Shown here: positions 11,753 to 31,100 of the stretch, in pieces
Layout of the letters: each line of letters opens with the position of its first letter
How positions within the stretch are numbered: position 1 is the first letter of the stretch
DNA from: Microcystis aeruginosa NIES-2549
GTDB lineage: Bacteria; Cyanobacteriota; Cyanobacteriia; Cyanobacteriales; Microcystaceae
DNA length: 32,000 bases
Assembly (NCBI RefSeq): GCF_000981785.2
Contig: NZ_CP011304.1
Coordinates: 2,940,001-2,972,000 of the forward strand
Reading direction: 5' to 3'
Notes under the pieces: generated by a model
Database searches by the model: none
What the model was told of the DNA's origin: nothing
What the model saw: the letters and a program-made list of their open reading frames with translations, nothing else
Position numbers and translations under genes: made by a program

Positions 11753-11768
11753 TAACTAGCCAATATCT

Positions 11769-12839
11769 ATGAATAGGAATCATCAATTATTAATCAATCT
11801 CGCTTTTCTAGGTACTAAATATACTGGGTTGACTACCTATACTAAAAATCTCATTCCCCAATTAGCTAACTTAAATCCTACCCTAATCACTTCTAATAGT
11901 TACCCAGATTTTAACACCTATCCTGTGTCGGCAAACCTCACCCAGGAACAGGGAACTAAAGGCAATATTAAGCGCTTAATTTGGACAGAAACCCAACTCT
12001 ATCAAACCTATCAACAATTGAAGTCTTCCCTGCTATTTACCCCCATTCCCGAAGCACCTATTTATGGAAATTGCCGCTATATTGTCACAGTTCATGATTT
12101 AATTCCCCTGCGATTTCCGAAATTTTCTCCCCTAACTTTTTATAATAAATACTATTTACCCCAAGTCCTGAAAAAAGCCACACATATTATCGCTGTTTCC
12201 CAAGCAACGGCCGCCGATATTAATAAGTTTTTTAACATACCTCTTGACAAAATAACCGTGATTCTTTCTGGATATGATTCTGATAATTTTCGTCCTCTAA
12301 ATCTGGCGACTCGTCCCTATTTTCTCTATCTTGGTCGTTATGATCCTCATAAAAATCTCGCTCGTTTAATTACTGCTTTTTCCCAAATCGATCCCGAATA
12401 TCAATTATTAATTGTCGGTCAATTTGACCCCCGTTTTACGCCGGCTCTACAGCAACAGGTAGAAGCATTATCAATCTCTCAAAGAGTGCAATTTTTAAAC
12501 TATGTTTCCTATGAAGAATTGCCGCAACTTTTAAACCAAGCAACTGCTTTAATTTATCCCTCCCTTTGGGAAGGTTTCGGATTACCTGTACTAGAAGCGA
12601 TCGCCTGTGGAACTCCTGTAATTACTTCTAATCTTTCCTCTCTCCCGGAAGTCACAGGAGAGGCGGCAATTTTAATTAATCCCTATAGTATTGATGAGAT
12701 GAGAGAGGCAATGCAGCAAATCGCTACCGATGAACAATTACGCCTAAAATTAAAGTCCCTCAGTCGTCAACGCGCCGAGCTTTTTAGTTGGGAAAAAACT
12801 GGTCAAGAAACCGCCACAATTCTGCAAAGTTTTCTCTAA
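11769..12839 (+). CDS. glycosyltransferase, GT4 family (paralogue of the preceding gene)
   Basis: 356 aa. It has the same motif block (..[33 protein letters not shown]..). A 16-nt gap to the upstream GT suggests an operon. Confidence 0.85.
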
Positions 12840-13063: not shown

Positions 13064-14017
13064 CTATATATTACTATACCATTCTTCGGGAATTTGAGCG
13101 ACTTTTTCTTGGCCAGTAGGCTGATGAATAGGTTTTCCTAAAGGACGAATTTTGAGATTTCCTTGCAAATAAGCGGCGATTCTTTCCCTGGCAATTTTCA
13201 CATATTCTGCTTCTTTTTCACTCCCCATCACTCGACGATTGTGCATAATACTAGCAATCAGAGAAGTTCCAACCCCGGCAAAAGGATCAAAAACCCAATC
13301 CCCCTCATTTGTCAAGGCTAAAACACATCTTTCTACTAATTCGATTGGATATTGACAAGGATGGATAGTTTTCTCTGGATGATTAGATTTAACGTTAGGA
13401 ATATCCCATAGTAACTCATCCCATTCTTGTGCTAAAAACTCCCAAACATCGCTGGGATTTTTCCCTAAAGGATTACCAGAGGGTTTACCGATATTTTTAC
13501 CTTTAAAATGGCGCTTACCAGGGTATTTAGCGGGGATTCTCACCGGATCAAGATTAAAGATATATTTATCGGTTTTTGTCAACCATAAAATAGTTTCATA
13601 TCTGCCAGAAAATCTTTTAGAGGTATGTAATCCATGGCCAAAATGCCAGACAATTCTATTTCTTAAAAAGAAACCCATTTGTTTAAATAGCTGATAATAA
13701 AAAATATCTAAAGGATAAACTTCTCCCTCTTGAACGAAATTTCCCACCTGCCAGCAAATACTGCCATTATCTTGCAAGATTCTAGGGAATTCTCGCATAA
13801 TTTTGGTTTGGGTTTCCAGATAAGTATCCAAAGAGATTTTTTTTTCGTAGTCTTTTCCTAAATTGTAGGGAGGAGAAGTAATAATCAAGCTCACAGAATT
13901 ATCTGGTATAGTCTTGATAAAATTATTGGTATCTCCTTGATAAAGAATTATTTCGGCATCAGGTTGATAAAAGTCTCGCACTGATTTTGATTGAGAAAAT
14001 AAGGGCAATTGATTCAT
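13064..14017 (-). CDS. site-specific DNA methyltransferase, N6_N4_Mtase family, beta-class (SPPY: N4-cytosine or N6-adenine)
   Basis: 317 aa. The catalytic motif IV, LIITSPPYNLGKDY, is near the N-terminus. The AdoMet motif I, VFDPFAGVGTSLIAS, is near the C-terminus, giving the beta-class order IV-TRD-I. No adjacent endonuclease ORF is present. Confidence 0.85.
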   Translation of the reverse strand: MNQLPLFSQSKSVRDFYQPDAEIILYQGDTNNFIKTIPDNSVSLIITSPPYNLGKDYEKKISLDTYLETQTKIMREFPRILQDNGSICWQVGNFVQEGEVYPLDIFYYQLFKQMGFFLRNRIVWHFGHGLHTSKRFSGRYETILWLTKTDKYIFNLDPVRIPAKYPGKRHFKGKNIGKPSGNPLGKNPSDVWEFLAQEWDELLWDIPNVKSNHPEKTIHPCQYPIELVERCVLALTNEGDWVFDPFAGVGTSLIASIMHNRRVMGSEKEAEYVKIARERIAAYLQGNLKIRPLGKPIHQPTGQEKVAQIPEEWYSNI

Positions 14018-16935: not shown

Positions 16936-16960
16936 GGCGATATTTTTCTGATTAAGAGTT

Positions 16961-17087
16961 ATACTAAATCCGTTGAGTAATACTAAATCCGTTAAGTATA
17001 TGCTACATATCAGGAGAGGCAAGAGGCAGAAGGCAAGAGGCAAAAGGGGGAATAAATAATCAGTTTTTAATAACCAGATTTAGTCTG
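16961..17087 (+). mobile_element. MITE, copy 3 (about 127 bp): duplicated 5' end, internal AGGCAAN heptamers, degenerate 3' TIR
   Basis: The sequence reads atactaaatccgttgagta|atactaaatccgttaagtat, then ctacatatcagga (shared with copy 1), then aggcaag aggcaga aggcaag aggcaaa (17017-17044), then ggggaataaataatcagtttttaataaccagatttagtct. Confidence 0.75.
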
Positions 17088-17119: not shown

Positions 17120-18808
17120 TTAAAAGTCAGACAGAGGAATAATTCCACAGGCTTGAATTTTGCTGAAAACGAGGTGAAGTTGCCACAATAACCAATTGCC
17201 AACTCTCCAGAAAGCCACGGAGTTTTGATGGTCAGCCACCTCGGCAGATGGATAACAAAGATTTTCCTCAAAAATCAACCAATGAACCGGTAAATGACCG
17301 AGGGGAGAATTCGGCTCTAATTGAAAGTTTAGTTGCTCATAATTGAGCCATTGACCTTCCTTCCGCCAACCTAGGCGATCGCCTAGTTTCTTTTGGGTTT
17401 CATAATCCACTAAACCACCGAGACTAGAGAAAATAGCCTGCTGAATACTAAACCCGAAATGACCATTACTATAATGCAGCCAAAGTTGATCAATTTTTTT
17501 CAGTTCCGAACAAGGTAATTGAGCAATATCTTGAGGATAAACCTCATTCCAGTAGGTCCTACCCAAAATTTTCAATAGTAGTTTAGTCGTTTGGCGATCG
17601 GCCGCTTGCCACTGTTGCTGTCTTAGCAAATCTTGTAATTGATTATAATCAAGATCCGCCGATTCTTGAGTTAAGATATTTGGGGAAGTCTGGGGATTTT
17701 TGGAAGTAGAAGATTTGTCAATATTGTTTTGAGTGAATTGAGAAACAACTATTGCCGGGGGATTTTTTGACCTAGTGTCTTTTTGACAAGCCTCTTGTTC
17801 TGCTAAATGATCAGATAATTTATTGATGGTTTTTTCTAGGGAAATAAATTGTGCTGACCATTCACTTTCAGTGAATAAGTAATCATTAAATTGATCAGAA
17901 GAAAAAGCATCTTTTAACCTTGCTTCTTTCTCGTAACCAGTCGCCAGAAAATTCAGCAAAAACTCAGAATTTATTGCTGAATCTGAGGTTTCTAACAGAT
18001 CAGGCTGAGGTATAAAAATATTATCTACCAAATACTTAATTTCTCCAACTGTTGCATAAAATTCTTCATCCACCTTAATGACTTCTTCTATTAATAATTG
18101 AAAAGGAGCAAAATAGTCCTGTAAGTAGTTTTCAAAATTAATCGCATTTTGGGCAAGATCAGCAATTTCTTGGCGAACTCGTTGAGATTTGAGTTGATAA
18201 TGATTTAATTCCTCATAAATTTTGAGTTCTTGAATAATTGCTTGCACAATTTTTTTCTGCTTTTGAGTATCCTCGGCTAATTTCTGAACTCCTTCCCCTA
18301 GTAATTTAGTTTTTCTCAACATCAAAAAAGATGTTTTTCCCAGTAGCAAAATTGCCCGAAAATTTTCCTGTTTTTCCAACTTGAGTTGATCGAGAATATT
18401 TTGATTATTATTATTTTTAATTTCTAACTTTATTCTCTCGTAGTCTAAGATTTTTAATTCTTGATATTTTTGGGAAAATAAAATTTTGAGATTGTCACTG
18501 AGTTGGAGTAAAAAACGATAATATCCGTCTTGATAGATTTCTAGTCCATTAATTAATAAATTATAGTCTTTAATTAATAACTGAGTCTCGATCAAGATTT
18601 CTTGTTGAGTAATTTTTTCTTTTCGTTTAATAATCTTACCAAAATAGTAATGGTAGCGAACTCCTTCTTGAATTAATTTCCGACGTTCCTTGATGATTTT
18701 CTGAAAATTTTTTAAGTATCTATTTTTAAAAACAGGAAGTTGATAGCTTTGCTCATAAATGGCAATTTTTTTATAGGTCATCAGATGTTGAGAGTTCCTA
18801 TTTAGCAT
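17120..18808 (-). CDS. coiled-coil protein with a C-terminal GUN4-like (tetrapyrrole-binding) domain
   Basis: 562 aa. The N-terminal roughly 370 aa are K/E/Q/L/I-rich with heptad-like periodicity. The C-terminal block ..DYNQLQDLLRQQQWQAADRQTTKLLLKILGR....LPCSELKKIDQLWLHYSNGHFGFSIQQAIF..LGDRLGWRKEGQWLNYEQLNFQLEPNSPLGHLP.. is the GUN4 domain signature (about nt 17230-17660). Confidence 0.8.
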   Translation of the reverse strand: MLNRNSQHLMTYKKIAIYEQSYQLPVFKNRYLKNFQKIIKERRKLIQEGVRYHYYFGKIIKRKEKITQQEILIETQLLIKDYNLLINGLEIYQDGYYRFLLQLSDNLKILFSQKYQELKILDYERIKLEIKNNNNQNILDQLKLEKQENFRAILLLGKTSFLMLRKTKLLGEGVQKLAEDTQKQKKIVQAIIQELKIYEELNHYQLKSQRVRQEIADLAQNAINFENYLQDYFAPFQLLIEEVIKVDEEFYATVGEIKYLVDNIFIPQPDLLETSDSAINSEFLLNFLATGYEKEARLKDAFSSDQFNDYLFTESEWSAQFISLEKTINKLSDHLAEQEACQKDTRSKNPPAIVVSQFTQNNIDKSSTSKNPQTSPNILTQESADLDYNQLQDLLRQQQWQAADRQTTKLLLKILGRTYWNEVYPQDIAQLPCSELKKIDQLWLHYSNGHFGFSIQQAIFSSLGGLVDYETQKKLGDRLGWRKEGQWLNYEQLNFQLEPNSPLGHLPVHWLIFEENLCYPSAEVADHQNSVAFWRVGNWLLWQLHLVFSKIQACGIIPLSDF

Positions 18809-18892
18809 AGCTATCTTAGACCAAAAAATTCCTCATTACTTAGCAATAATCATTCGCTGCTCCCATCTCTTGCAAGAGGGAGCAATACCTAA

Positions 18893-19396
18893 TTAAACAT
18901 TTTCAACTTCAACAATAACTGGTTCATTTTCAATAACTGGTTCATTTTCAATAACTGGTTCATTTTCAATAACTGGTTCATTTTCAATAACTGGTTCATT
19001 TTCAATAACTGGTTCATTTTCAATAACAACTGTTTGAGGACTTTCAGGAGTTGGCTCAGTTACCGTTTCTTGCTGCTTTACTGTCTGTTCTTGATGGTCA
19101 GTCAAGTATTTTTTAGTTTTTAATTTCAGGTCATCAGTCAGAGGTAAAGCATCAATTTCAGACAAAAGTGTTTCCAGGGATTCTTGTTTACTTCGCTCGG
19201 CGTAAAAAGCATTCAGAACCGCTTCAATTCCGTACTGAGCAATCGCATCTCCTAGGACAGTAACCAACCCCATCGCTCCAATACCCAGAAAAACTACAAA
19301 GGGTTGTCCGAGGGTCAGAATTAGCACGATGACAGCAATAATAGCCGAAGCTAAATAAGTACCTGCCACTTTTTTGATAATGTTATCGAGTTCCAT
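18893..19396 (-). CDS. small membrane protein (two predicted TM helices) with a C-terminal acidic (I)ENEPV x6 tandem repeat
   Basis: I prefer the ATG at 19396 (MELDNIIKK..), preceded by the SD gaggtga, to the GTG at 19405. The hydrophobic stretches are TYLASAIIAVIVLILTLG and FVVFLGIGAMGLVTVLG. The C-terminus reads TVV(IENEPV)x6 IVEVENV. Confidence 0.6.
   Translation of the reverse strand: MELDNIIKKVAGTYLASAIIAVIVLILTLGQPFVVFLGIGAMGLVTVLGDAIAQYGIEAVLNAFYAERSKQESLETLLSEIDALPLTDDLKLKTKKYLTDHQEQTVKQQETVTEPTPESPQTVVIENEPVIENEPVIENEPVIENEPVIENEPVIENEPVIVEVENV
18914..19021. repeat. perfect 18-bp tandem repeat x6 inside the coding sequence
   Basis: aataactggttcattttc is repeated six times without a mismatch, plus a partial seventh unit. 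It encodes IENEPV in-frame on the minus strand. Confidence 0.95.
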
Positions 19397-19447
19397 AAAA
19401 ATCACCTCAAATTTCTAGCGAAGGATTAGTTTAATTCTAAAGCAAGG

Positions 19448-21472
19448 TTAATCTGTCTGTTGATCGCCGTCAAGTAAAGCTTGAAGAAAAGGTTCAAGAC
19501 TTTTAGGACGATAATCGGAAAAAGCCTTTAATCGTTTTACCACACTGTGATGAACAGTGACAACTTTGGCATTGAAATATCGCCATTGCTCACCTCCCAA
19601 GGCCGACAATCCTTTAACAGTATTATCGAACTTGATGGTCGGGTCTAGTTTAATTGGGAATTCCTCAAATTCAGAGGTGGTTGAGTCAAACTCTAATCCC
19701 AATTTTTTGGCTTGATTAATCATCCATTGTAACGGGTAATCGGAAAGTCCTTGATATTCTTTTTTGCCACCACCTAGACAGGTATGTTCACCCACAAATA
19801 AAACTTCTTTGACAACTTGTTCGGGATTTTCTGGATTGGCTTTTATCGGAGTGGAAGGGAAGTTTTTCCGTTTTTCATCAATGGCAACAGCATGAAAAGC
19901 ATTCTGGATAATCGGACTTAATTTTGTGTTACTAAATTCATATTTTTTATGATAAAACTTAGCCAGGGGAAACCAAGGAGTTAAATCAGGAATACCAAAA
20001 TTGCCAACTGTATCCCAACAACCTAACATCTTAACTGGAATACGATCTTGAAAATCTTCCTTTTCTGTCTCAATTTTTTTAGCATTAGCGGCACGGAATT
20101 GTTGAGCTTTGGCACTATCGGAACTAACGGTGTGGTCTCGATATAGTTGATAAGCTAGGGGAATTTCTTTAATCTTAGAGCGTTTTAGGATTCCACATTT
20201 ATCGATAAAACTAGCCAAACAACGAACGATATATGCGCCTCGACTAAAACCTAACAAATAAATTTCATCCTCGGTTGTGGGATTGTAGTTAAGGACAAGA
20301 AAACGATAGGCATCTTGAATCATTCGATCAAGGCCCCAGCCAAAAGTTTCATTCCCTAAACTTTTAATAAATTCGTTATCTTCGGGGGTGCCAGAACCTG
20401 ACAAAAAGACGATTTGTGGGGTTTGATCCTCGGCAATATACTTAATAGATTCGGCGAATTTAACCACATTGGTGGGGTAAGCACTGGTAGAGTCTTCCCA
20501 AGAACCATCACAGCAAATAATTAACCGTTTTTTCTGGTTTGAATAAGTGAGGATATCCGGTTCAGAAATTGCAGTTTCAGTAATCTCCTCAATTTCATTT
20601 TTGGGAAGAGCAGCTTCTTCAGGGATTATAATTGATTCTGGATTCTCTTCCTGGGAAGGTTCTTGATTTTCAGCTTGAACAGCCTGTTCAACCACTTCGG
20701 TTTCTTCCAGGGAATTAAAAATTGCGTTGACCATTGTTATCCTTCTGGCATTCTTTCTAGCTTTACTGCTAGTCTGAATTTTTGATTTAGGGATCGAGGT
20801 CGGTTTAGAGGGAAGACTATCTAGTTGCCAGGTTGTCCCATAAAGAATACCATGATTGCTATAACTTGTTTGATCCTCGGCACTGCCATTGAGTGATAAA
20901 TAAGTAACTAAGCCAAGGTCATCAACCCGGGGAGATTGATACATCGCTTTTTGGATTTCTTCTTGGCTACGCGCTTGATTCCAAAGAGAAAGTTCTGCAA
21001 GACAACCTTGCCAATAATGGGAGAGATTAACAGAGGCTCCCAAGATGATTTTTTCAACCCCCGTTAAGGCACGGTTATGACCGTTGCCACGATGCCAAAT
21101 GATACCATTGCGATAGATCAGCATTCGGCCCGTGGTCGCATTTTTGACAAAAGCCCAATGAGTCCAATTATTATAATCTTTAAGCTTGACTTTTTTTTCA
21201 ATTCGATCGAAACCTTCTTCATTACCCGCATCCCAAAAAATCGCAGGTTTAACGGAATCGCCCCAGGGCAAGGTAATATGTAGAACGCGGTTATTTTCCT
21301 GATTAACAGCTTCTAAAAGAGTGGTTTCTGTAGCTAAATTATTTTCCCCTTTTGCCCAAAATGTAATGGTAATACTCTGATCGATGTCAAGAAATCCGTG
21401 GGATAAATCAATATGATCATCAATGCCATTAAATTTTAGTACAGAGCGTTGTTCAGCCATTGGTTTTGTCAT
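19448..21472 (-). CDS. LamG/concanavalin-A-like lectin domain fused to a DUF2235 (T6SS Tle1-like) alpha/beta-hydrolase domain
   Basis: 674 aa. The N-terminal roughly 215 aa (..LKFNGIDDHIDL....ITITFWAK....WTHWAFV....IYRNG....LGAS......WQGCLAELSLWN.) fit the Laminin_G_3 pattern. An acidic E/Q/P/S-rich linker follows. The C-terminal domain carries the three DUF2235 hallmarks: RLIICCDGSW, the nucleophile elbow LLGFSRGAYIV, and GCWDTVGNFG. Confidence 0.8.
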   Translation of the reverse strand: MTKPMAEQRSVLKFNGIDDHIDLSHGFLDIDQSITITFWAKGENNLATETTLLEAVNQENNRVLHITLPWGDSVKPAIFWDAGNEEGFDRIEKKVKLKDYNNWTHWAFVKNATTGRMLIYRNGIIWHRGNGHNRALTGVEKIILGASVNLSHYWQGCLAELSLWNQARSQEEIQKAMYQSPRVDDLGLVTYLSLNGSAEDQTSYSNHGILYGTTWQLDSLPSKPTSIPKSKIQTSSKARKNARRITMVNAIFNSLEETEVVEQAVQAENQEPSQEENPESIIIPEEAALPKNEIEEITETAISEPDILTYSNQKKRLIICCDGSWEDSTSAYPTNVVKFAESIKYIAEDQTPQIVFLSGSGTPEDNEFIKSLGNETFGWGLDRMIQDAYRFLVLNYNPTTEDEIYLLGFSRGAYIVRCLASFIDKCGILKRSKIKEIPLAYQLYRDHTVSSDSAKAQQFRAANAKKIETEKEDFQDRIPVKMLGCWDTVGNFGIPDLTPWFPLAKFYHKKYEFSNTKLSPIIQNAFHAVAIDEKRKNFPSTPIKANPENPEQVVKEVLFVGEHTCLGGGKKEYQGLSDYPLQWMINQAKKLGLEFDSTTSEFEEFPIKLDPTIKFDNTVKGLSALGGEQWRYFNAKVVTVHHSVVKRLKAFSDYRPKSLEPFLQALLDGDQQTD

Positions 21473-21825: not shown

Positions 21826-22995
21826 TTATTGTAACTCTGACCAAATTCCGCGGCATCGCTCTACAATTAGTCCCTGAAAAATTAATTGGGTTGCGGGATG
21901 AATCTCTACTTTATACAGAGCAAAAAGACCTGTTGGACTATTTAGATTCAACTCCCTTCGCGTTAGAGATAAAGCTTTTGTTCGGTGTATTTCCACCGCT
22001 TTTAGTAAGCCTGGATAACTAATATTACGCAGGGACAATTGACCATTTTTTGTGAGATAAATAGCATCATTCTGCAAGAGATATTCCAAGCTGATCAAAC
22101 TAGCGTGGACATCCACATCTTTTTCTAAACCCCCTAAACGGTGAGCATCTAAACCAAAGCGAATGCAGAAATTAACAGCGACTAATTTTCCCGCTTCTTC
22201 GGCAGGTAAAGCACAATCGGCAAATTCAAAGCCTAAACTATCTGAGCGCCACTCCTCGACTCCGGCATAGGTATAGTTTTGAAACAGTTTATTTTTGAGT
22301 TTCAAGTCAAATCCCAACCCACTAGCATGACCCGCTTCATGGAATTGGGTATCGAGATGACGATAGCGTTCACCATTAATTTGATCCTCTAGGGGTCCTA
22401 ATAGTAAATCGGCCGTTTCTGGCTCAAAAATTTTTCGGATACATTCGTAGCTAGAGCCAGAAAAGCGTCTTTTTTGCTCACTGGCATTATTTAAAGCTGG
22501 CCCTTGAACACTATTGGGAAAAGTCCACCTATGGGGAACGATAAAAGCCTCCCCCTTTTCACCTTTAATCGTGCCACAACTGGCAATTTCAGTAAAGGAT
22601 AAATTTCTGGGAATCGGTTGTCTTAGACTGCCAAATTTTTCACGAGTTAAGCTTTCTAGTTGTTCGATAGAAGGTTGACTATTTTGGTGAATTTTTCCGT
22701 AAATCGCACTCAAAGTGAGTTGTCGTTCTCCCTGACGATTGATGCGATAGGGAGCAATCATCAGAAAATAACCATTTTTGCCGATAAAATTCAGATTAAT
22801 GAAATCTTCTGATAAAATGCTCCAGTCGTTGGTTTCTAAAGCCTCTGCTGTTTTCCACAGCCACTGAGCCGGAATTTCACAGCTATCTGCTTCCTGTTGA
22901 CGCAGTTTTTTCGCCGCAATCGCAATTTTATTTTGTTCGATATCTTGGACGATTTCTTGGAAGAACTGTTGTTGATTGACCAGAGTTTGATTCAT
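21826..22995 (-). CDS. hypothetical protein with zinc-metallopeptidase-like HExxH and downstream EExR motifs
   Basis: 389 aa. ..DTQFHEAGHASGLG.. is followed about 25 aa later by ..GVEEWRSDS... This pattern is reminiscent of the HExx(x)H / EExR(A/S)(E/D) motif pair of M49 (DPP III-like) peptidases. The family assignment is inference only. Confidence 0.45.
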   Translation of the reverse strand: MNQTLVNQQQFFQEIVQDIEQNKIAIAAKKLRQQEADSCEIPAQWLWKTAEALETNDWSILSEDFINLNFIGKNGYFLMIAPYRINRQGERQLTLSAIYGKIHQNSQPSIEQLESLTREKFGSLRQPIPRNLSFTEIASCGTIKGEKGEAFIVPHRWTFPNSVQGPALNNASEQKRRFSGSSYECIRKIFEPETADLLLGPLEDQINGERYRHLDTQFHEAGHASGLGFDLKLKNKLFQNYTYAGVEEWRSDSLGFEFADCALPAEEAGKLVAVNFCIRFGLDAHRLGGLEKDVDVHASLISLEYLLQNDAIYLTKNGQLSLRNISYPGLLKAVEIHRTKALSLTRRELNLNSPTGLFALYKVEIHPATQLIFQGLIVERCRGIWSELQ

Positions 22996-23223: not shown

Positions 23224-25125
23224 TTAAGATTGTTGTCGTTGGCGATTCGGGGGGGGTTCCCCGGCAGAATTGATTTTAGGATTGACCTCGGTTTCCTGAT
23301 TCGCTAAATCTTCGAGCCTATCTTGAGAATTATCGACAGAAATATTAATAATTTCTTTCACTTTTTGTCGGCGATATTCCTCCACTGTAAGCAGTTGCCA
23401 ATGGGAATTACTAGAGAGTTCTAAAACCCATTGATGATAGTTAAAGAGACTTTCACGATGTCCGACACTAATAAAAGTTGTGTGAGTTTTCTGCAATTGC
23501 CGATATAAATTTTCCTCATTGTTTAAGTCCAAAGCACTTGTGGCTTCATCGAGGATAGTAAAACTGGGACGGGTAATTAAGACCCTGGCAAAAGCCAAAC
23601 GTTGTTGTTCTCCCAGGGACAAAATGTTTTCCCAAGGCTCTTCTGTATCAAAGCTATCGACTCGATTTAGTAAATTTTGGAGATTGACTTCTTGCAAAAC
23701 TTCCCTTAATTTTATCTCATTGGTTTCTTGATTGCGATTGGGATAAAGTAACTGTTCTCGCAAGGTTCCTAATATTATGTAGGGACGTTGGGGCAGAAAC
23801 AATACTTCTTCTAGGGGGGGACGCACTAATCGGCCGGTTCCTGCATTCCATAAACCGGCGATAGCGCGTAGCAAAGAACTTTTACCCCGACCACTCGGAC
23901 CGACAATTAATAAACCTTGTCCAGGCTGAACAGAAAGGGAGAGGTTTTCGACAATTACCTGTTCATAATCGGGAGTTTGCAAGGTGACATCTTCAAAGGA
24001 AAATTGGGTTTCTTCGATAGTTGTAATCGTGCTTAAATTTTCCGGTTGTTTAATGACTTCTTCTAAGGCTTGGGAAAATTGCGATAGACGTTCAACATAA
24101 CTGCTAAATTGTGCCGAAGTGCCAAATTCACTAATTAATTCCGCCAGCGCCGTAGCAAACAAATTAGCCGCTAAACAGGCTTGCCCGACCTGTCCGAAAC
24201 TAATGCCCTCACTATTGATATACAAGGGACCCAAAATGACAAAAGTAAATACTTGAATTGCCGCCTGATAGCCTCGACTAAAAATTTCTGTGCCTCTCTC
24301 CCAATCAATTTTACGTTTAGCGCTGTCTAAGAGTTTATTAAATCGCCGCTGAATAATATTTAATTCCTGATTTTCTCCCTCAAAGAAAGCGATCGACTCC
24401 GCATGATTACGAATATGAGTTAGAGCATAATTATAGTTAGCCTTAAGTTCTAATTCTTCTTGAGTAATTTTATTTAAAGCTTGGTTAAAATAGATAGCAA
24501 TGACGTTACCGAGAATTGTCCAAACGACTAAAATAATGGCGACAGAGGAAGAAATTGACCAGAGAATCACTAAAAAAGTGATCATATCTAGGACATTTTC
24601 TAGGGCAACTGCAAAAAAGGAGAGAGCTTTACTGGTAATCGGCTCAATTTCCTGGGATAAACGCTGATCTGGGTTGTCGATATCGGATTTAAAATTAATT
24701 CTGTAATAGGCGCGATTATGCAAATATTTGTTGAGAATCCAGTCGTTGAGCCAAGCATACCAATCCAGGGCGATTCTTTTCCTGAGAAATTTAAGCAAGC
24801 CAACCAAAAGGGTGACAAAGAGCAGTCCAACCGCAAAAACTACCAAAGTTTTGACAAATTTATCAAAATCACTTTTTTCAAGAATGACATCAACTAAGTA
24901 ATTACTAACAAAGCTATTGAAGGCATTTAATCCTACAACTCCTAGTATTACCCCGATTAGTAGGATGAGCATTGCCCAAGCTTGAATCACATCGGCAAAA
25001 GTCCTTCCCCCCGACTCGGTAGGATACCAATAGGGAGCAGCGATCAGCTTGACACTGTGCCAAAATTTGCTGACATCGGAGATAATATTAGTCGTCGATC
25101 GATCTTGAGGGACTTTGGCGGACAT
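23224..25125 (-). CDS. ABC transporter, fused permease/ATPase (ABCD / SbmA-BacA-like membrane domain type), likely peptide exporter
   Basis: 633 aa. The N-terminal half is multi-TM. The C-terminal NBD has Walker A GPSGRGKSSLLRAIAGLW, signature LSLGEQQRLAFARV and Walker B FTILDEATSALD. It is transcribed divergently from the sulfotransferase/NRPS genes. Confidence 0.85.
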   Translation of the reverse strand: MSAKVPQDRSTTNIISDVSKFWHSVKLIAAPYWYPTESGGRTFADVIQAWAMLILLIGVILGVVGLNAFNSFVSNYLVDVILEKSDFDKFVKTLVVFAVGLLFVTLLVGLLKFLRKRIALDWYAWLNDWILNKYLHNRAYYRINFKSDIDNPDQRLSQEIEPITSKALSFFAVALENVLDMITFLVILWSISSSVAIILVVWTILGNVIAIYFNQALNKITQEELELKANYNYALTHIRNHAESIAFFEGENQELNIIQRRFNKLLDSAKRKIDWERGTEIFSRGYQAAIQVFTFVILGPLYINSEGISFGQVGQACLAANLFATALAELISEFGTSAQFSSYVERLSQFSQALEEVIKQPENLSTITTIEETQFSFEDVTLQTPDYEQVIVENLSLSVQPGQGLLIVGPSGRGKSSLLRAIAGLWNAGTGRLVRPPLEEVLFLPQRPYIILGTLREQLLYPNRNQETNEIKLREVLQEVNLQNLLNRVDSFDTEEPWENILSLGEQQRLAFARVLITRPSFTILDEATSALDLNNEENLYRQLQKTHTTFISVGHRESLFNYHQWVLELSSNSHWQLLTVEEYRRQKVKEIINISVDNSQDRLEDLANQETEVNPKINSAGEPPPNRQRQQS

Positions 25126-25765: not shown

Positions 25766-26419
25766 ATGCCAGTAATGCCAGCCTTTGCTAATCAGAAAAT
25801 AGAGTTTACAGATATACTATATATTCACTATTATGTCGGTGAACAAGTTAAACTTTTGCGTCAACGCTATTTTGGCAATGTTGTCTTTATTCATATTAAT
25901 AAGACAGGTGGCAGAAGTATTGAGAAATCTCTAAATTTACCTTTTGAGCATAAAACTGCTTTAGAAAAAATTGACGAAATGGGCAAACAAAGGTGGGAGC
26001 GAGTATATAAATTTACAAGTGTTAGAAATCCTTGGGACAAAGTTATTTCTCACTTTCATTATCGTGTTGAAACCAATCAGACAAATTTAAGGACAAAACC
26101 AATAAAATTTAAAGAGTGGGTTAAGTTGACCTACGGGAATAAAGATCCTTTCTATTATGACAGCCCTAAAATGTTTATGCCTCAGTTGGATTGGATTACA
26201 GATCATGAAGGTAAAATTTTAGTAGATTTTATTTGCCGTTTTGAAAATCTTAATAACGACTTCAGTGTCCTATGTGAAAAACTTGGTAAAAATGCGACTT
26301 TACCTCATATTAATTCCTCAAAACATGGCAACTACCGTGAATATTACGATGATGATACTATTGAGATTATCGCAAAATCCTTTAGCAGAGATATAGAGAA
26401 ATTTGGCTATAAATTTTGA
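25766..26419 (+). CDS. free-standing sulfotransferase (PAPS-dependent, family-2-like)
   Basis: 217 aa. The 5'-phosphosulfate-binding loop is VVFIHINKTGGRSIEKSL, and a 3'-phosphate-binding-like motif, FTSVRNPWDKVISHFHY, is present. Confidence 0.75.
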   Translation: MPVMPAFANQKIEFTDILYIHYYVGEQVKLLRQRYFGNVVFIHINKTGGRSIEKSLNLPFEHKTALEKIDEMGKQRWERVYKFTSVRNPWDKVISHFHYRVETNQTNLRTKPIKFKEWVKLTYGNKDPFYYDSPKMFMPQLDWITDHEGKILVDFICRFENLNNDFSVLCEKLGKNATLPHINSSKHGNYREYYDDDTIEIIAKSFSRDIEKFGYKF

Positions 26420-26497: not shown

Positions 26498-28100
26498 ATG
26501 CCAATAATGAAAGCCCTTGCTAATCATAAAATCGTTATTACAGCTACATTTACCAGTGAACCAGTGGAGGATTCCCTGTCATATTGGCTCAAAAAAATAG
26601 GATTTCCTTATTCAATAGAATTTGCTCAGTACAATCAAGTCTTTCAAGAATTACTCAATCCTGCTAGTCTTTTAGCGACTAATCAAAATGGGGTTAATGT
26701 GATTCTGGTTAGGTTTGAAGACTGGGAAGGAAGTAAAAACAAGGCCGAATTGACCTTAGAGCAAACCCTTAGAGACTTTGGTAATGCCTTGAAAACGGCG
26801 ACAATGCGCTCACCAATTCCCTATTTAGTCTGTGTCTGTCCCCCCTCTCCAACCCATGATACAACGTTCAATAGTTTACATGAGAAATTACAAGAACAAT
26901 TAGACCGTGATCTCCAGAATATCCCTAGCATATATCTAATTAAAAGTCAAGCATTACTCAAGACTTATCCTGTACAAGAGTATTATGATCCTTATGGAGA
27001 AGAACTAGGAAATATTCCCTATACCTTGGCTTTTTTTGCGGCTTTGGGGACAATATTAGCGCGAAAAATCTTAGCCTTGATAAACTCTCCTTACAAAGTG
27101 ATTGTCCTTGACTGCGACAATACATTATGGCATGGGGTTTGTGGAGAAGATGGAGTTAAGGGAGTGAAAATTGATGCTCCATTTCGAGCTTTACAAGAAT
27201 TTATCATCGCACAGCAAGCAGCAGGAAAGTTAATCTGTTTATGTAGTAAGAATCAACCAGAGGATGTCTTTGCCGTTTTTGAAGGACATCCCGATATGTT
27301 GCTTAAGGAAAATCATTTAGTAAATTGGCGCATTAACTGGCAAGAAAAATCTCAGAATTTGCAGTCCTTAGCGGAGGAATTACAACTAGGATTAGATAGC
27401 TTTATTTTTATTGATGATAATCCGGTTGAGTGTGCGGAAGTTAGAGCAAACTGTCCAGAAGTTTTGACATTACAACTTCCTGAAAATTGCGATCATATTC
27501 CAAAATTTTTAGAACATATTTGGGCTTTTGATCAACTCAAAACCACTCAAGAAGACCGACAAAGAACTAATCTTTATCAACAGAATATTCAGCGTCAGAA
27601 TTTACAAAAATATTCCCTTTCTTTTGAGGATTTTCTCGGCCAACTCAACTTAGAAATAGAGATTTCCCCGATGCAAACGGAGGAATTGACGCGAGTTGCC
27701 CAACTTACTCAACGTACTAACCAATTTAACTTAACAACTATCCGACGCTCAGAATCCCAAATTCAAAAACTTTGTGGTCTAGGGGAATTAGACTGTCGAG
27801 TGGTTAAAGTAAAAGATCGTTTTGGGGATTATGGTTTAGTTGGTTTGCTATTATTTACTGCTCAAGAAAAATCCCTGATTGTCGATACATTTTTGCTCAG
27901 TTGTCGAGTATTGGGTCGCGGTGTAGAACATAAAATGTTAGCTTATTTGGGTACAATTGCTCAACAAAAAGGGTTAGAACAACTCAAACTTATTTATAAA
28001 CCTACCCCCAAAAATCAACCAATTTGGGATTTTTTAAGGACTGTTGGTCAAGAATTTCAGCAGGAAAAAGAGGAGAGATATTTATTTAATTTTCCTAGTT
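26498..28100 (+). other. NRPS domain: FkbH-like (HAD-phosphatase subfamily IIIC plus GNAT-like tail) glyceryl-loading domain
   Basis: The HAD motif I, KVIVLDCDNTLWHGVCGEDG, sits near aa 201. Further matches are ..LCSKNQPEDV.., ..FIFIDDNPVECAEV.. and then the GNAT-like ..VKVKDRFGDYGLVGLLLF....VDTFLLSCRVLGRGVEHKML... Confidence 0.7.
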
Positions 28101-31100
28101 ATATTGCGTCTAAAGTTAATTTCACTCCTCTCGGTGATGAACATAAAATAGCTACTAAAAATTCATCTAAAACAGTTAAGAGAATTATCCGATCAGAGTT
28201 TTTTGAAGAGATTGGAAATAACTTATATGATGCTCAACTAATTCTGCGAAAAATTAATTCTCAAAACCAGCGTCAACGGACTCAGTTAGACACAGAATTT
28301 ATTGCTTCTCGTACTCCTCTAGAAAAAGTGATTGCTTCTCTATTCGCAGAAGTCCTTAAACTTGACAGAGTGGGGAGAGATGACGATTTTTTTGAGCTTG
28401 GTGGTGATTCAATTCGGGGAGCAATTCTAATTAATAAACTGCAAGCACAACTAAACGAAATTATTCACTTTATTGTTTTATTTGACAGAAAGACTGTTAA
28501 GGAATTAGCCAGATATATAGAGGAACATTATCCAAAAGCAGTTACCAAAATACTAGGTAAAGAAAGAACCGAAATTAACAACCTACCACAAGAGCGCATT
28601 GCTGAAGCTAAAGTGTTACAAATGCGCTCCCTAATTCCTGCTCTTAGCAGCCCAATAGATGATGACAATAGCAAAAATCCACCAGCTATATTTATCCTTT
28701 CTCCTTATCGTAGCGGTTCCACCTTACTCCGCGTTATCTTAGGAGGAAATCCACAGCTTTTTGCACCTCCAGAATTGGAACTACTAGGGTTTAATACCCT
28801 TGGGGAAAGAAAGGCGAAATTTTCTGGCCGTTACAACTTCTGGATGGAAGGAACAATTCGCACCATCATGGAAATTAAGGGGTGTAATGCTGAAAAAGCG
28901 ATCGCAATTATGGAAGAATTAGAAGAGAAAAATCTGACTAGCAAACAGTTTTACCGTCTTCTACAGGGATGGTTGGGAGATAAAATCTTAGTGGATAAAA
29001 CTCCATCCTATTCTCTAGATTTAGAAACTCTAAAACGAGCAGAAATAAATTTTGATAACCCTCTATATATTCATCTGGTGCGTCATCCTTTAGGAATGAT
29101 TAACTCTTATGAAGAAGCTAAAATTGAGCAAATATTTCCCTATCAAAATCCTTTCAATAATCGAGAACTTGCCGAACTCGTTTGGCTGATTAGCCATCAA
29201 AATATCTGCGAATTTTTACAACAAGTTTCTCCCCAACGTCAGTATCAAGTTAAATTTGAAGACATCGTTAAGCAGCCACAAAAAACCCTAGAGAGTTTAT
29301 GTCAGTTTTTAGGAGTAGAATTTAATCCTGATATGCTGCAACCCTACCAAGAGAAAAAGCAGCGCATGACTGACGGTATTTATGCCGAATCTAGAATGCT
29401 AGGAGATGTAAAATTTCATCAACATCAAAGCATTAATCCTAACACCATTGAGCAATGGAAAGATTACTACAACACTGACTTTTTAGGTAATGTAACTTGG
29501 CAACTAGCAGAGTCTTTTGGCTATCCGAAAAATAACAATAATATCCCCCAAATTAGTCGAGAAAATCCCGCCGAACCTCAGACTTTTCCAGTTTCTTTTG
29601 CTCAACAGAGACTATGGATTTTAGCGCAATTAGAACCAGACAGCCCTTTTTACAATATGTTTAAAGCGGTTCATCTTCAGGGACGTATAAATATAGAAAT
29701 TTTAGAACGCAGCCTCAACGAAATTGTCCATCGTCACGAAATTCTACGCACTAATTTTAAGGAAGTAACAGAAACTCCAGTACAGGTAATTGCTCCCCGC
29801 GCAACTCTGAAAATTTCGGTTGTGGACCTACAAGGATTATCAGGACAAGAACAGTCACAACAATTACAACTTTTAGCAACTGAGGATCAATTACAACCTT
29901 TTGACCTGACTACGGGAATATTGCTAAGAGTCACCTTAGTGCAACTTAAATCAGAATCATCAGCTTTGTTATTGACCATGCACCACATTATTAGTGATGG
30001 TTGGTCAATGGGAGTATTGCTCAAAGAATTGTCAAGTTTATATCAAGGATTTTTGCTTGATGATGGTTCTGTTCTCTCAGAATTGCCGATTCAATATGCC
30101 GATTTTACAATTTGGCAACGGCAATGGTTACAAGGAGAAACTCAAGGTTTTATCACCATCCAAAACCAAATTAATTACTGGAAACAACAGTTAGCCGCAG
30201 CCCCTCCTTTGCTAGAATTACCTACGGACAGACCCCGTCCCTCTGTGCAAACTTTCCGAGGTGGATGTTTTTCCTTCCAGTTAGATGCCAAACTGACAGC
30301 ATCTCTAAAAGAACTCAGCCACAAATCAGCAACTACCCTATTTATGACGTTGATGGCGGCTTATGTTACTCTATTATTCCGCTATAGTGGTCAAGATGAT
30401 ATTCTGGTAGGAACACCGATTGCTAATCGCAACTATCAAGAATTAGAAGGATTAATTGGCTTTTTTGTCAATACCCTAGTGATGCGAACTCGCTTAGAAG
30501 GTAATCCCAGTTTTGAAGAATTATTAAGACAAGTGCGTTCTGTTTGTACGAATGCTTATGCTAACCAAGACGTTCCTTTTGAGCAGATTATCGAAACTTT
30601 GCAAATAGAGCGCAGTCTTAGTCACAGTCCTTTGTTTCAGGTGATGTTTGTTTTACAAAATGTGGCAATGGAGGAATTAGAAAATCCTGAGTTAAAAATA
30701 TCGCATCTACCTCTAGATAATGTTAACGCCAAGTTTGATATCACCTTACAAATGTGGGAAACAAATACAGAAGAAGGCAACTCTCTCCAAGGATTTTGGC
30801 AATATAATACAGATTTATTTGATCAAAACACAATTGCTCGCATGACTGGTCATTTTCAGACATTATTAGAGACAATTGTTACTAATCCGCAAGAGTCGGT
30901 AGGAACCTTGCCATTACTAACAAAAAAAGAGCGTTATCAACTGTTATTAGAATGGAATAATACTGATACACCATACAGTTATACTCAGTGTATTCATCAG
31001 TTATTTGAAGAGCAGGTAAAACGGACTCCTGATGCTGTAGCTGTAGTATTTAAAGGTGAAAAATTAACCTATAATGAGTTAAATCATCGAGCTAATCAGT

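What the first reader, a model, noticed from the sequence alone, without database searches (positions are those of the whole stretch)
17120..21472. Candidate three-gene operon: LamG + DUF2235 (Tle1-like lipase) fusion, 2-TM repeat protein, coiled-coil + GUN4 protein
Seen in sequence: three co-directional minus-strand ORFs are separated by only 42 and 84 nt. They are:
1. A 674-aa protein with an N-terminal LamG/ConA-like lectin fold, an acidic linker and a C-terminal DUF2235 hydrolase with all three hallmark motifs intact (CCDGSW, GFSRGA, WDTVG).
2. A roughly 167-aa protein with two TM helices and an acidic repeat tail.
3. A 562-aa protein with a long coiled-coil and a C-terminal GUN4 domain.

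Established knowledge: DUF2235 is the catalytic domain of T6SS Tle1 phospholipase effectors. GUN4 domains bind tetrapyrroles (Mg-chelatase regulation).

Inference: this combination of a membrane-attacking lipase, a small membrane protein (immunity or anchor?) and a porphyrin-binding coiled-coil scaffold does not match any system I know. It could be a conflict or programmed-lysis module gated by a tetrapyrrole or photo-oxidative signal, or an envelope or thylakoid lipid-remodelling module. The block is visibly more A+T-rich than the flanking core genes.
Basis: partly seen in the sequence, partly recalled or inferred. Interest (0 to 1): 0.7.

Follow-up and report, generated by a model that had tools for sequence, protein, structure and literature searches.

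The report
Lipase–membrane–GUN4 cassette beside cyanopeptide cluster
Three neighbouring Microcystis genes (a lectin-fused lipase, a small membrane protein and a helical protein ending in a GUN4-like domain) form a real, conserved and undescribed gene cassette that travels with the ABC transporter of protease-inhibitor peptide gene clusters; what it does is still unknown.

Summary
All three minus-strand ORFs exist, and Laminin_G_3, DUF2235/Tle1-like and GUN4 are all called by Pfam above its cut-offs.

The trio is conserved outside Microcystis, in Snowella and in two metagenomic lineages, where ORF1 is 56–71% identical and the flanking genes differ. So it moves as a unit.

- It sits at the transporter end of a cyanopeptolin-type NRPS cluster: ABC transporter (McnF-like) and DUF6014, with a divergent FkbH–PCP–sulfotransferase–C–A synthetase.
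- Across 21 non-redundant loci of the ORF3 family, an ABCD-like ABC transporter is within 7 kb in 15, the 2-TM protein in 9, a second small protein ('P142') in 11, and a LamG–lipase in 6.
- In two of those six, and on a Nostoc plasmid, the lipase is patatin (CBASS-effector-like) instead of DUF2235.

ORF3's GUN4 domain is a paralog without the LxNxLR motif. Its 340-residue N-domain is a new mobile module also fused to FGE-sulfatase (a DGR target), WD40, TPR, HEAT and LamG.

Best reading, confidence about 0.4: a ligand-sensing, membrane-associated lipase cassette coupled to the cyanopeptide-cluster ABC transporter. It is not a T6SS effector pair and not Mg-chelatase regulation. The cassette is not described in the papers I could search, and its function is untested.

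The parts
19448..21472 (-). ORF1, 674 aa: LamG/ConA-like domain, acidic linker, DUF2235 (Tle1-like alpha/beta-hydrolase). No signal peptide.
20951..21427 (-). ORF1 Laminin_G_3 domain (residues 16-174). Homologous (28% identity, E 1e-12, same boundaries) to the LamG of the LamG-patatin proteins in sister cassettes.
19712..20530 (-). ORF1 DUF2235 catalytic domain (residues 315-587). GFS410RG serine motif; D487 and H563 conserved.
18893..19396 (-). ORF2, 167 aa from the ATG: two-helix membrane hairpin, then the conserved GDAIAxYGIEAVLNAxYAERSK...LPIT..LKLK segment, then an acidic repeat tail. New family, here called 'TM2'.
18913..19027 (-). 18-nt perfect tandem repeat, 6.4 copies, encoding (ENEPVI)n in the ORF2 tail. 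Copy number differs between Microcystis strains.
18857..18885 (-). Imperfect 12-bp hairpin in the ORF2-ORF3 spacer. No U-tract, not statistically significant; probably not a terminator.
17120..18808 (-). ORF3, 562 aa: conserved N-domain, variable linker, GUN4-paralog domain.
17789..18808 (-). ORF3 N-domain (residues ~1-340): four-stranded beta unit plus a long helical hairpin. No Pfam or PDB match. Found elsewhere fused to FGE-sulfatase, WD40, TPR, HEAT/LRV, beta-helix and LamG/NPCBM.
17285..17662 (-). ORF3 GUN4-like domain (residues 383-508). The LxNxLR motif positions read VHWLIF.
21826..22995 (-). DUF6014 protein, 389 aa, between the ABC transporter and ORF1. Present in most Microcystis copies of the locus; probably the 'McnG' of the literature (not verified).
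23224..25125 (-). ABC transporter (ABC_membrane_2 + ABC_tran), ABCD-like, McnF-type. This is the most frequent neighbour of the ORF3 family.
25766..26419 (+). Stand-alone sulfotransferase (Sulfotransfer_2) of the divergent NRPS cluster.
26498..32000 (+). NRPS running off the window end: FkbH (glyceric-acid loading), PCP, sulfotransferase, C, A. This is the ociA/mcnA-type cyanopeptolin loading architecture.

Best explanation
The three genes are the distal half of a conserved cassette built around the ABCD-like ABC transporter that accompanies cyanobacterial protease-inhibitor peptide clusters (cyanopeptolin here; anabaenopeptin-like and microviridin clusters elsewhere).

Proposed mechanism; every step below is inferred and none was tested:
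1. ORF3 is a soluble sensor or scaffold. Its C-terminal GUN4-fold pocket binds a macrocyclic ligand, either the cluster's own cyclic peptide or a tetrapyrrole.
2. ORF3's N-terminal helical-hairpin domain is the constant output or assembly module.
3. ORF2 is a two-helix membrane hairpin that docks the assembly at the membrane, next to the transporter.
4. ORF1 is the effector: a lipid acyl-hydrolase held by its LamG domain. When engaged, it hydrolyses membrane lipids.
5. The net effect is regulated membrane damage or remodelling coupled to the handling or release of stored defensive peptides. In other words, a conflict-type 'sensor plus phospholipase' module attached to a chemical-defence gene cluster.

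What is shown: gene content, domain identities, conservation of the linkage, lipase-family displacement, and loss of the Gun4 motif.
For: 1. The trio is conserved with changed flanks in Microcystis (L001, L002, L091-L116), Snowella (L083), L081/L082 and L086, and in divergent orientation in L115.
2. Across 21 non-redundant ORF3-family loci, an ABC transporter lies within 7 kb in 15. It is upstream on the same strand in 12, and within about 400 nt in 11. TM2 is present in 9, P142 in 11, a LamG-lipase in 6 and NRPS genes in 12.
3. Non-homologous lipase displacement: LamG-DUF2235 is replaced by LamG-patatin in L117, L138 and L173, with the same LamG module and the same TM2 gene downstream. That patatin matches the CBASS phospholipase-effector models at E 7.5e-64. 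Lipid hydrolysis is therefore the selected activity.
4. ORF1 keeps the catalytic Ser/Asp/His columns.
5. ORF3's N-domain occurs with interchangeable C-terminal binding domains: FGE-sulfatase in 31 of 79, GUN4 in 13 of 79, plus TPR, HEAT, WD40, beta-helix and LamG/NPCBM. This includes a target of a diversity-generating retroelement (DGR) that is followed by the Avd gene. That is the domain pattern described for cyanobacterial conflict proteins (PMC7159879).
6. A GUN4-like domain is also part of the PADLOC defence model PD-T4-6 (E 5e-35).
7. The cassette sits in or next to both NRPS and RiPP protease-inhibitor clusters. GUN4-superfamily genes in microviridin clusters have been reported as unexplained (PMC4558948).
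Against: - No experimental datum bears on any of these proteins.
- ABC transporters are not typical parts of sensor-effector defence systems.
- PADLOC has no model matching ORF1 or ORF2.
- No signal-generating enzyme (cyclase, NTPase) is present in the cassette.
- LamG-DUF2235 exists without TM2 or ORF3 in Planktothrix and Phormidium.
- ORF3-family and N-domain genes can stand alone (L121, L171, L172).
- The ligand of the GUN4 paralog is unknown.
- The N-domain has no structural relative that would reveal its output.
- Co-transcription is not shown. A 353-nt gap separates ORF1 from DUF6014, and the promoter and terminator scans were uninformative.
Confidence: 0.4

Rival explanations
1. Non-lethal biosynthesis or export accessory. 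The proteins help the ABC transporter act as a membrane platform for maturation, trafficking or export of the cluster's peptide. ORF3's GUN4-fold pocket would chaperone the macrocyclic product. ORF2 would anchor it. The lipase would locally remodel lipids or remove an acyl or ester group.
For: In 11 of 21 non-redundant loci the ABC gene lies within about 400 nt upstream of the ORF3 homologue on the same strand, with gaps of 16-381 nt. NRPS genes are within 7 kb in 12 of 21, and microviridin ATP-grasp genes lie directly upstream in L173 and adjacent in L081/L083. The microviridin transporter MdnE is reported to act as a membrane scaffold for the biosynthetic enzymes rather than as a proven exporter (review PMC7823629). 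The closest relatives of ORF1's hydrolase domain sit inside NRPS operons (L005-L007).
Against: The cassette accompanies chemically unrelated products (NRPS depsipeptides, ureido peptides, RiPPs). At least one copy (L117) has no biosynthetic genes within the 4.5 kb upstream and 10 kb downstream examined. Characterised cyanopeptolin, anabaenopeptin and microviridin pathways are, to my knowledge, described without these genes. The N-domain family's other members (DGR targets, plasmid-borne stand-alone genes) have no link to biosynthetic clusters.
Confidence: 0.25
2. One reading: a tetrapyrrole- or photo-oxidative-stress-gated lipase module that remodels or attacks thylakoid or envelope lipids, with GUN4 acting as a porphyrin sensor.
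For: The domain is a confident GUN4 fold (Pfam E 4.7e-37; Foldseek to 4xkc and 1z3x with probability 1.0). Kaur et al. propose that GUN4 fusions sense tetrapyrrole status (PMC7159879).
Against: The residues at the LxNxLR motif, which true Gun4 keeps, are replaced: N to W510 (invariant in the family) and R to F/Y. Rockwell et al. report that GUN4 paralogs lack the motif needed for bilin binding (PMC10156173). The genomic context is peptide clusters and an ABC transporter, not pigment or lipid metabolism.
Confidence: 0.1
3. A Tle1/Tli-like toxin-immunity pair for interbacterial antagonism. ORF1 would be a secreted phospholipase toxin and ORF2 its immunity protein; ORF3 would be unrelated.
For: ORF1 carries the Tle1-like catalytic domain. 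A small membrane protein is encoded directly downstream in every cassette that has a LamG-lipase.
Against: No T6SS genes occur in the window or in the related loci examined. T6SS is, to my knowledge, not known in cyanobacteria. ORF1 has no signal peptide. ORF2 homologues occur with ORF3 homologues where there is no lipase (L089, L110, L124). ORF3 co-varies with the pair.
Confidence: 0.05
4. No joint function. The adjacency reflects shared descent and hitch-hiking in a recombination-prone secondary-metabolite island.
For: The full trio is confined to a few Chroococcales-type lineages. Each gene family also occurs without the others. Microcystis islands are rich in mobile elements (PMC2779907).
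Against: The linkage survives changes of flanks, gene order and orientation (L081, L086, L115, L173), and survives replacement of the lipase family while LamG and TM2 are kept.
Confidence: 0.15

Closest known systems
T6SS Tle1 phospholipase effector with Tli1 immunity protein
   Same: ORF1's catalytic domain belongs to the same Pfam family (PF09994) with the GxSxG serine motif. A small protein is encoded immediately downstream.
   Different: There is no T6SS and no PAAR/VgrG/Hcp linkage. The N-terminal domain is LamG. The downstream protein is a cytoplasmic-membrane hairpin, not a periplasmic immunity protein, and it also occurs without any lipase. The pair is linked to an ABC transporter and a GUN4-paralog protein.
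CBASS with a patatin (CapV) phospholipase effector, and sensor-plus-lipase abortive-infection logic in general
   Same: Sister cassettes carry a patatin domain that matches the CBASS effector models (E 7.5e-64). The architecture suggests a ligand-binding sensor plus a membrane-lytic effector.
   Different: There is no CD-NTase or other signal synthase. In the window the effector is DUF2235, not patatin. An ABC transporter and two new small-protein families are part of the cassette. No phage-defence phenotype is known.
Gun4, the Mg-chelatase cofactor (Synechocystis Sll0558; PDB 1y6i, 1z3x)
   Same: The C-terminal 130 residues have the GUN4 core fold (33% identical to Nostoc Gun4 by tblastn).
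   Different: ORF3 is 562 aa with an unrelated 340-residue N-domain. The LxNxLR motif is replaced. It belongs to the paralog group for which loss of Gun4 function and bilin binding has been proposed.
Cyanobacterial conflict-system and DGR-target proteins with a variable N-terminal output domain and a C-terminal FGS or GUN4 domain (Kaur et al. 2020; Vallota-Eastman et al. 2020)
   Same: ORF3 obeys the same syntax: one N-domain combined with GUN4, FGE-sulfatase, TPR, WD40 or HEAT at the C-terminus. A Microcystis paralog is followed by the DGR Avd gene.
   Different: In the passages I read, the N-terminal domains named are kinases, caspases, trypsin, TIR, vWA, EADs and similar. No MoxR-vWA, STAND or GTPase partner is nearby. 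Instead the partners are an ABC transporter, TM2 or P142, and a LamG-lipase.
Transporter and accessory end of cyanopeptide gene clusters (McnF/McnG of mcn, the ABC transporter of oci, MdnE/MvdA of microviridin)
   Same: Same position and orientation: an ABC transporter divergent from an FkbH-PCP-sulfotransferase-C-A synthetase. 'GUN4 superfamily protein plus hypothetical protein' has been noted in Fischerella and Nodularia microviridin clusters.
   Different: The published cluster descriptions I read do not include the lipase, TM2 or ORF3 genes, and none assigns them a function.

Membership tests
T6SS Tle1-Tli effector-immunity pair | DUF2235/Tle1 catalytic domain with the GxSxG nucleophile | tested here: met
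   PF09994 E 1.7e-75; GFS410RG; S410 and H563 invariant, D487 nearly invariant
T6SS Tle1-Tli effector-immunity pair | Genetic linkage to T6SS components (VgrG, Hcp, PAAR, TssA-M) | tested here: not met
   None among the window ORFs scanned with Pfam, nor among the precomputed Pfam annotations of genes in the look-up loci L081-L090
T6SS Tle1-Tli effector-immunity pair | Cognate periplasmic or lipoprotein immunity protein that neutralises the lipase | tested here: inconclusive
   ORF2 is a two-helix membrane hairpin with no known family. It also occurs without a lipase. Neutralisation cannot be tested with these tools.
Gun4 (Mg-chelatase cofactor) | GUN4 core fold | tested here: met
   PF05419 E 4.7e-37; phmmer to 1z3x E 2.5e-16; Foldseek to 4xkc and 1z3x with probability 1.0
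Gun4 (Mg-chelatase cofactor) | Conserved LxNxLR motif after GHLP (Asn211 and Leu213 as numbered in PMC10156173; Arg214 numbering from my own recollection of Synechocystis Gun4) | tested here: not met
   ORF3 reads GHLP-VHWLIF. W510 and L511 are invariant in the family. A true Nostoc Gun4 reads GHLP-LSNQLR. The alignment to 1y6i ends at residue 209.
Gun4 (Mg-chelatase cofactor) | Protein of ~230 aa that stimulates Mg-chelatase | not testable with these tools
   ORF3 is 562 aa with an unrelated N-domain. Activity needs biochemistry.
CBASS | CD-NTase signal synthase encoded next to the effector | tested here: not met
   The neighbourhood screens found only the cassette families, NRPS and ATP-grasp genes around the cassettes. 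Pfam of the larger flanking ORFs of L173 and L117 found no nucleotidyltransferase, and PADLOC of the cassette proteins gave no cyclase model.
CBASS | Patatin (CapV-like) phospholipase effector | tested here: not met
   The window effector is DUF2235 with no PADLOC hit. Only the sister-cassette protein tested (L117 LamG-patatin) matches PDLC00758, at E 7.5e-64.
Cyanopeptolin-type (mcn/oci) biosynthetic gene cluster | NRPS with the GA(FkbH)-T-S-C-A loading region and a divergently transcribed ABC transporter | tested here: met
   FkbH TIGR01686 E 2e-94; PP-binding, Sulfotransfer_3, Condensation, AMP-binding. The orientation is as described for oci and mcn (PMC2533009).
Cyanopeptolin-type (mcn/oci) biosynthetic gene cluster | The three genes are required for making or exporting the peptide | not testable with these tools
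   Needs knock-outs or heterologous expression. The published cluster description read here names only mcnA-C and mcnE-G (PMC2779907).
Conflict-system or DGR-target protein with constant N-terminal module and variable C-terminal binding domain | The same N-terminal domain combined with alternative C-terminal FGS, GUN4 or repeat domains | tested here: met
   132 representative clusters. Of 79 long ones: FGE-sulfatase 31, GUN4 13, TPR 4, HEAT 3, WD40 2, plus beta-helix and LamG/NPCBM.
Conflict-system or DGR-target protein with constant N-terminal module and variable C-terminal binding domain | Linkage to NTPase, vWA-MoxR, STAND or DGR machinery | tested here: not met
   None next to ORF3 or its orthologues. 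Only the FGE-sulfatase paralog on plasmid p1FD4 is followed by Avd.

The most novel reading that the evidence does not exclude
A widespread, previously unrecognised cyanobacterial system made of an ABCD-like transporter, an N-domain-GUN4 sensor, a 2-TM and/or P142 adaptor, and a LamG-tethered phospholipase. In it the GUN4 fold has been repurposed to sense the cell's own cyclic protease-inhibitor peptide, or a damage-linked tetrapyrrole. On attack by phage, chytrid or grazer it triggers lipase-driven membrane rupture, which releases the stored peptides as an altruistic chemical defence of the colony.
Probability: 0.12. Interest if true: 0.85.

Novelty: new variant of a known kind. Interest (0 to 1): 0.62.

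Why it matters
Cyanopeptolins, anabaenopeptins and microviridins are among the most abundant bloom metabolites of Microcystis, Planktothrix and Nostoc. How they are stored, exported or released, and what the cluster-encoded ABC transporters actually do, is still unresolved.

A conserved cassette attached to exactly those transporters gives concrete candidates for that missing step. The cassette combines a lipid hydrolase (from two interchangeable enzyme families), a membrane hairpin protein and a ligand-binding GUN4 paralog.

The work also does three other things:
- It defines a new mobile N-terminal domain shared with DGR-diversified proteins.
- It gives a testable function for one group of the enigmatic GUN4 paralogs.
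- It shows that the Tle1-type DUF2235 fold has T6SS-independent roles in cyanobacteria, including a frequent pairing with COX-like haem peroxidases.

Tried and rejected
- Exact-sequence look-up of ORF1 found nothing on record.
- Promoter and terminator scans were at background level.
- The ORF2-ORF3 hairpin is not significant.
- NCBIfam has no model for ORF1, ORF3 or DUF6014, and only a chance-level hit (E 0.059) for ORF2. PADLOC has none for ORF1, ORF2, DUF6014 or P142.
- The full-length AF2 model of ORF3 was poor (pLDDT 50.7), and Foldseek recovered only GUN4.
- The better N-domain model (pLDDT 71.5) gave no PDB match with E < 0.01. Weak hits to the GyrA coiled coil, HlyD/EmrA hairpins and AhlB were treated as generic helical-hairpin similarity.
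- A periplasmic-adaptor (HlyD-like) role for ORF3 was considered and rejected, because ORF3 has no signal peptide or TM segment.
- phmmer of ORF1 against PDB sequences found nothing.
- The GUN4 hits about 5 kb from DUF2235 in five Nostoc loci were checked. They are the housekeeping Gun4 with an intact LSNQLR motif, on the opposite strand. I judged this incidental.
- ORF2 and the ~140-aa gene downstream of ORF3 homologues ('P142') turned out to be unrelated families.
- Neighbourhoods of N-domain paralogs (L170, L171, L172) showed no cassette genes.
- Literature searches linking DUF2235 or patatin with GUN4, or DUF2235 with cyanobacteria, returned nothing relevant.

Full report
**1. Observation**

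ORF1 is 19448-21472 (674 aa). ORF2 is 18893-19405 from a GTG; homologues begin at MELD, so the likely start is the ATG at 19396, giving 167 aa. ORF3 is 17120-18808 (562 aa).

Pfam calls Laminin_G_3 (E 6e-18) and T6SS_Tle1-like_cat/DUF2235 (E 1.7e-75) in ORF1 and GUN4 (E 4.7e-37) in ORF3. It calls nothing in ORF2. The three hydrolase motifs are present. Ser410 and His563 are invariant and Asp487 nearly so in a 17-sequence alignment.

ORF2 has two adjacent hydrophobic helices and a perfect 18-nt repeat of 6.4 copies encoding (ENEPVI)n.

The A+T-richness claim is only partly right. The ORF2/ORF3 region is at 30-35% GC, but the NRPS side of the locus is similarly A+T-rich. Consensus promoter and terminator scans are at background. 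The spacer hairpin between ORF2 and ORF3 is not significant.

**2. Organism and local context**

Best hits are Microcystis, at 94-97% identity.

Upstream on the same strand lie a DUF6014 protein and an ABC transporter with ABC_membrane_2 and ABC_tran domains. The transporter's best NCBIfam match is the ABCD-type fatty-acyl transporter subfamily, though below that model's cut-off.

Divergent from the transporter are a sulfotransferase and an NRPS that runs off the window end. It was therefore absent from the ORF list. Its domain order is FkbH, PCP, sulfotransferase, C, A. That is the glyceric-acid/sulfotransferase loading architecture described for the Planktothrix cyanopeptolin synthetase OciA. 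An oppositely transcribed ABC transporter is described for both oci and mcn (PMC2533009).

The NIES-843 genome paper lists the Microcystis cluster as mcnA-C, mcnE, McnF (ABC transporter) and McnG (unknown) (PMC2779907). So the block lies just beyond the transporter end of a cyanopeptolin-type cluster. Equating DUF6014 with McnG is my inference.

**3. Is the trio conserved?**

Yes. I scanned one genome per species with a DUF2235 alignment and ran tblastn on the resulting loci. The full trio appeared only in Microcystis (L001, L002). A related MAG (L003) has LamG-DUF2235 flanked by two ORF2-like genes.

Exact-protein look-ups then found the same order (LamG-DUF2235, a ~130-aa ORF2 homologue, a ~550-aa GUN4 protein) in three more places:
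- a Snowella MAG (L083);
- an unnamed lineage (L081/L082), with ORF1 71% identical;
- a metagenome contig (L086), with ORF1 56% and ORF3 65% identical.

In these loci the flanks differ. The ABC transporter is divergent. Microviridin genes (Inhibitor_I10 and two ATP-grasp ligases) lie beyond it in L081 and L083, and a TubC_N-C-A-T-C NRPS lies downstream in L081/L082 and L086. In L115 the lipase-TM2 pair is divergent from the GUN4 gene. The block therefore moves as a unit.

**4. The trio is part of a bigger cassette**

ORF3's family (~560 aa, ~50% identical over its full length) is widespread in Nostocales and Planktothrix. I scanned metagenomes with an ORF3 alignment and screened all neighbours with phmmer. 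This gave 21 non-redundant loci (clusters at 85% identity). Within 7 kb of the ORF3-family gene:

| Neighbour | Loci out of 21 |
|---|---|
| ABCD-like ABC transporter | 15 (upstream on the same strand in 12; within ~400 nt in 11) |
| ORF2 family ('TM2') | 9 |
| An unrelated ~140-aa protein ('P142'), directly downstream | 11 |
| LamG-lipase | 6 |
| NRPS genes | 12 |

Examples:
- Nostoc punctiforme: NRPS(TE), HMGL-like, ABC, GUN4 protein, P142.
- Planktothrix: a divergent TM2 gene, the GUN4 protein, then P142, with no ABC transporter and no lipase.

Most telling are L117, L138 and the Nostoc UHCC 0926 megaplasmid (L173). There the order is LamG-patatin, TM2, ABC, GUN4 protein, P142. The LamG module is homologous to ORF1's, with the same boundaries (28% identity, E 1e-12). 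TM2 is conserved. But the lipase belongs to a different fold family, one that matches the CBASS phospholipase-effector models at E 7.5e-64.

Replacement of one lipase family by another, with the partners kept, argues that lipid hydrolysis is the selected activity and that LamG is the adaptor. In L173 two microviridin-type ATP-grasp genes lie directly upstream. L117 has no biosynthetic genes within the flanks examined.

The literature already notes, without explanation, a 'GUN4 superfamily protein and a hypothetical protein' in the microviridin clusters of Fischerella and Nodularia (PMC4558948).

**5. What ORF3 is**

*GUN4 domain.* It aligns to Gun4 structures up to GHLP. The following LxNxLR motif reads VHWLIF, and W510 and L511 are invariant in the family. 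A true Nostoc Gun4 in one of my loci reads LSNQLR. Rockwell et al. report that GUN4 paralogs lack this motif, which is needed for bilin binding (PMC10156173).

*N-terminal domain.* The first ~340 residues are strongly conserved, with no Pfam match. A search of 1.84 billion representative proteins found 132 clusters. Among 79 long members the C-terminal partner is:
- FGE-sulfatase in 31;
- GUN4 in 13;
- TPR, HEAT/LRV, WD40, pentapeptide or beta-helix in the others;
- NPCBM plus two LamG domains in one 2157-aa protein.

Microcystis itself has an N-domain-FGE-sulfatase paralog in many sequence variants. It stands alone in NIES-843. On plasmid p1FD4 it is followed by the Avd gene of a diversity-generating retroelement (DGR). 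A divergent N-domain-GUN4 gene stands alone on a Gloeothece plasmid.

This 'constant N-terminus, interchangeable C-terminal binding domain' syntax is what Kaur et al. describe for cyanobacterial conflict proteins carrying FGS or GUN4 (PMC7159879). Vallota-Eastman et al. describe the same for DGR targets (PMC7517822).

*Structure.* An AF2 model of the N-domain (pLDDT 71.5; 78-95 for residues 10-230) shows a small beta-sheet followed by a very long helical hairpin. Foldseek finds no significant PDB relative. The PADLOC model of the defence gene PD-T4-6 contains a GUN4-like segment that ORF3 matches at E 5e-35. That PD-T4-6 is an experimentally validated anti-phage gene is from my own knowledge.

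**6. What ORF1's family does elsewhere**

Of 80 species-level DUF2235 loci, 28 have an animal-haem-peroxidase-family gene directly downstream. This suggests a lipase plus fatty-acid dioxygenase pair.

The closest relatives of ORF1's hydrolase domain lie between NRPS genes in Nostoc, Floridaenema and Phormidium. Planktothrix LamG-DUF2235 has neither TM2 nor ORF3 next to it.

So DUF2235-GUN4 linkage is specific to this cassette. It is not a general rule.

**7. Mechanism**

*Shown:* gene content, domain identities, conserved linkage, lipase displacement and loss of the Gun4 motif.

*Inferred (confidence about 0.4):* ORF3 is a ligand-binding sensor or scaffold. ORF2 is a membrane dock beside the ABC transporter. 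ORF1 is a LamG-tethered lipid hydrolase effector. Together they give regulated membrane hydrolysis coupled to the handling or release of the cluster's peptides.

*Main rival (0.25):* a non-lethal maturation or export platform. This is in line with the reported scaffold role of MdnE (PMC7823629).

*Less likely:* tetrapyrrole gating (0.1), a Tle1-Tli toxin-immunity pair (0.05), and pure hitch-hiking (0.15).

**8. Comparison and novelty**

The cassette shares parts with T6SS Tle1 effectors, CBASS patatin effectors, Gun4 and FGS/GUN4 conflict proteins. It fails a defining feature of each:
- no T6SS;
- no cyclase;
- no LxNxLR motif;
- no NTPase or vWA partner.

I found no paper that describes the cassette, the N-domain, TM2 or P142.

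I rate it a new variant of a known kind: a sensor-plus-lipase module attached to a biosynthetic-cluster transporter. There is a minority chance that it is a distinct system.

**9. Verdict**

The finding is real and conserved. It is more interesting than a stand-alone operon because of the cassette and its tie to bloom-metabolite clusters. Its function is entirely untested.

Noticed in passing
L016-L076 (e.g. L063 9998-11005 + 11088-12716; L026 9998-11011 + 11053-12741): 28 of 80 species-level cyanobacterial DUF2235 loci have an animal-haem-peroxidase-family (COX-like) gene directly downstream on the same strand, with gaps of -3 to 483 nt. This is a candidate lipase plus fatty-acid dioxygenase (oxylipin) operon. 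No paper in the library links DUF2235 with cyanobacteria.
   Followed up: partly
L005, L006, L007 (e.g. L007 6689-9922, 10007-12610, 12734-20548): The closest relatives of ORF1's hydrolase domain (L007 also has the LamG domain) are inserted between a C-A-T NRPS gene and a 2100-2600-aa NRPS, with no TM2 or GUN4 genes nearby.
   Followed up: partly
L174 6983-9468 (Microcystis aeruginosa FD4 plasmid p1FD4): A paralog with ORF3's N-domain fused to FGE-sulfatase is followed by the Avd gene of a diversity-generating retroelement. Many length and sequence variants of this paralog exist across Microcystis strains, which suggests the C-terminal domain is being diversified.
   Followed up: partly
window 18913-19027: The perfect 18-nt tandem repeat in the ORF2 tail, (ENEPVI)n, varies in copy number and sequence between Microcystis strains (L001 and L002 have fewer, degenerate copies). 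It is absent from Snowella and other homologues.
   Followed up: partly
L173 1314-11132 (Nostoc sp. UHCC 0926 megaplasmid pn1): An unannotated stretch carries, all on one strand: two microviridin-type ATP-grasp ligase genes, LamG-patatin, TM2, the ABC transporter, the N-domain-GUN4 gene and P142. This is the most complete version of the cassette.
   Followed up: yes
L001 14612-16501; L099 11838-13901: Some Microcystis genomes carry a second ABC transporter paralog (56% identical to the McnF-like one in L001) between the ORF3 homologue and gnd. The window lacks it: only 245 nt separate ORF3 from gnd, and that spacer holds short tandem repeats at 16956-17047.
   Followed up: no
L063 ~5150-5800 (-), likewise L023, L029, L046, L066: The bona fide Gun4 gene (GHLPLSNQLRG motif) lies about 5 kb from the DUF2235-peroxidase pair in five Nostoc genomes, on the opposite strand. 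Probably coincidental, but it could mislead a naive co-occurrence count.
   Followed up: yes
protein P0283 (2157 aa, from the representative library): One distant protein fuses the ORF3-type N-domain with NPCBM and two LamG domains. This puts in a single polypeptide two domain types that are encoded by separate genes (ORF3 and ORF1) in the window.
   Followed up: no
window 6008-6358, 7385-8725, 9224-10162, 10622-12839, 13064-14017: Elsewhere in the window there are a PemK/MazF toxin gene, an AAA_35 ATPase next to a WD40 protein, two GT4 glycosyltransferases that also hit the 'GT4-conflict' model, and a DNA methylase. The neighbourhood has a defence or accessory flavour, interleaved with housekeeping genes (purF, aroA, gnd).
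   Followed up: no
PADLOC model PDLC04062 (PD-T4-6), positions 295-429: The profile of this defence gene contains a GUN4-like C-terminal segment that ORF3 matches at E 5e-35. GUN4-like domains therefore occur in defence proteins outside cyanobacterial pigment metabolism.
   Followed up: no
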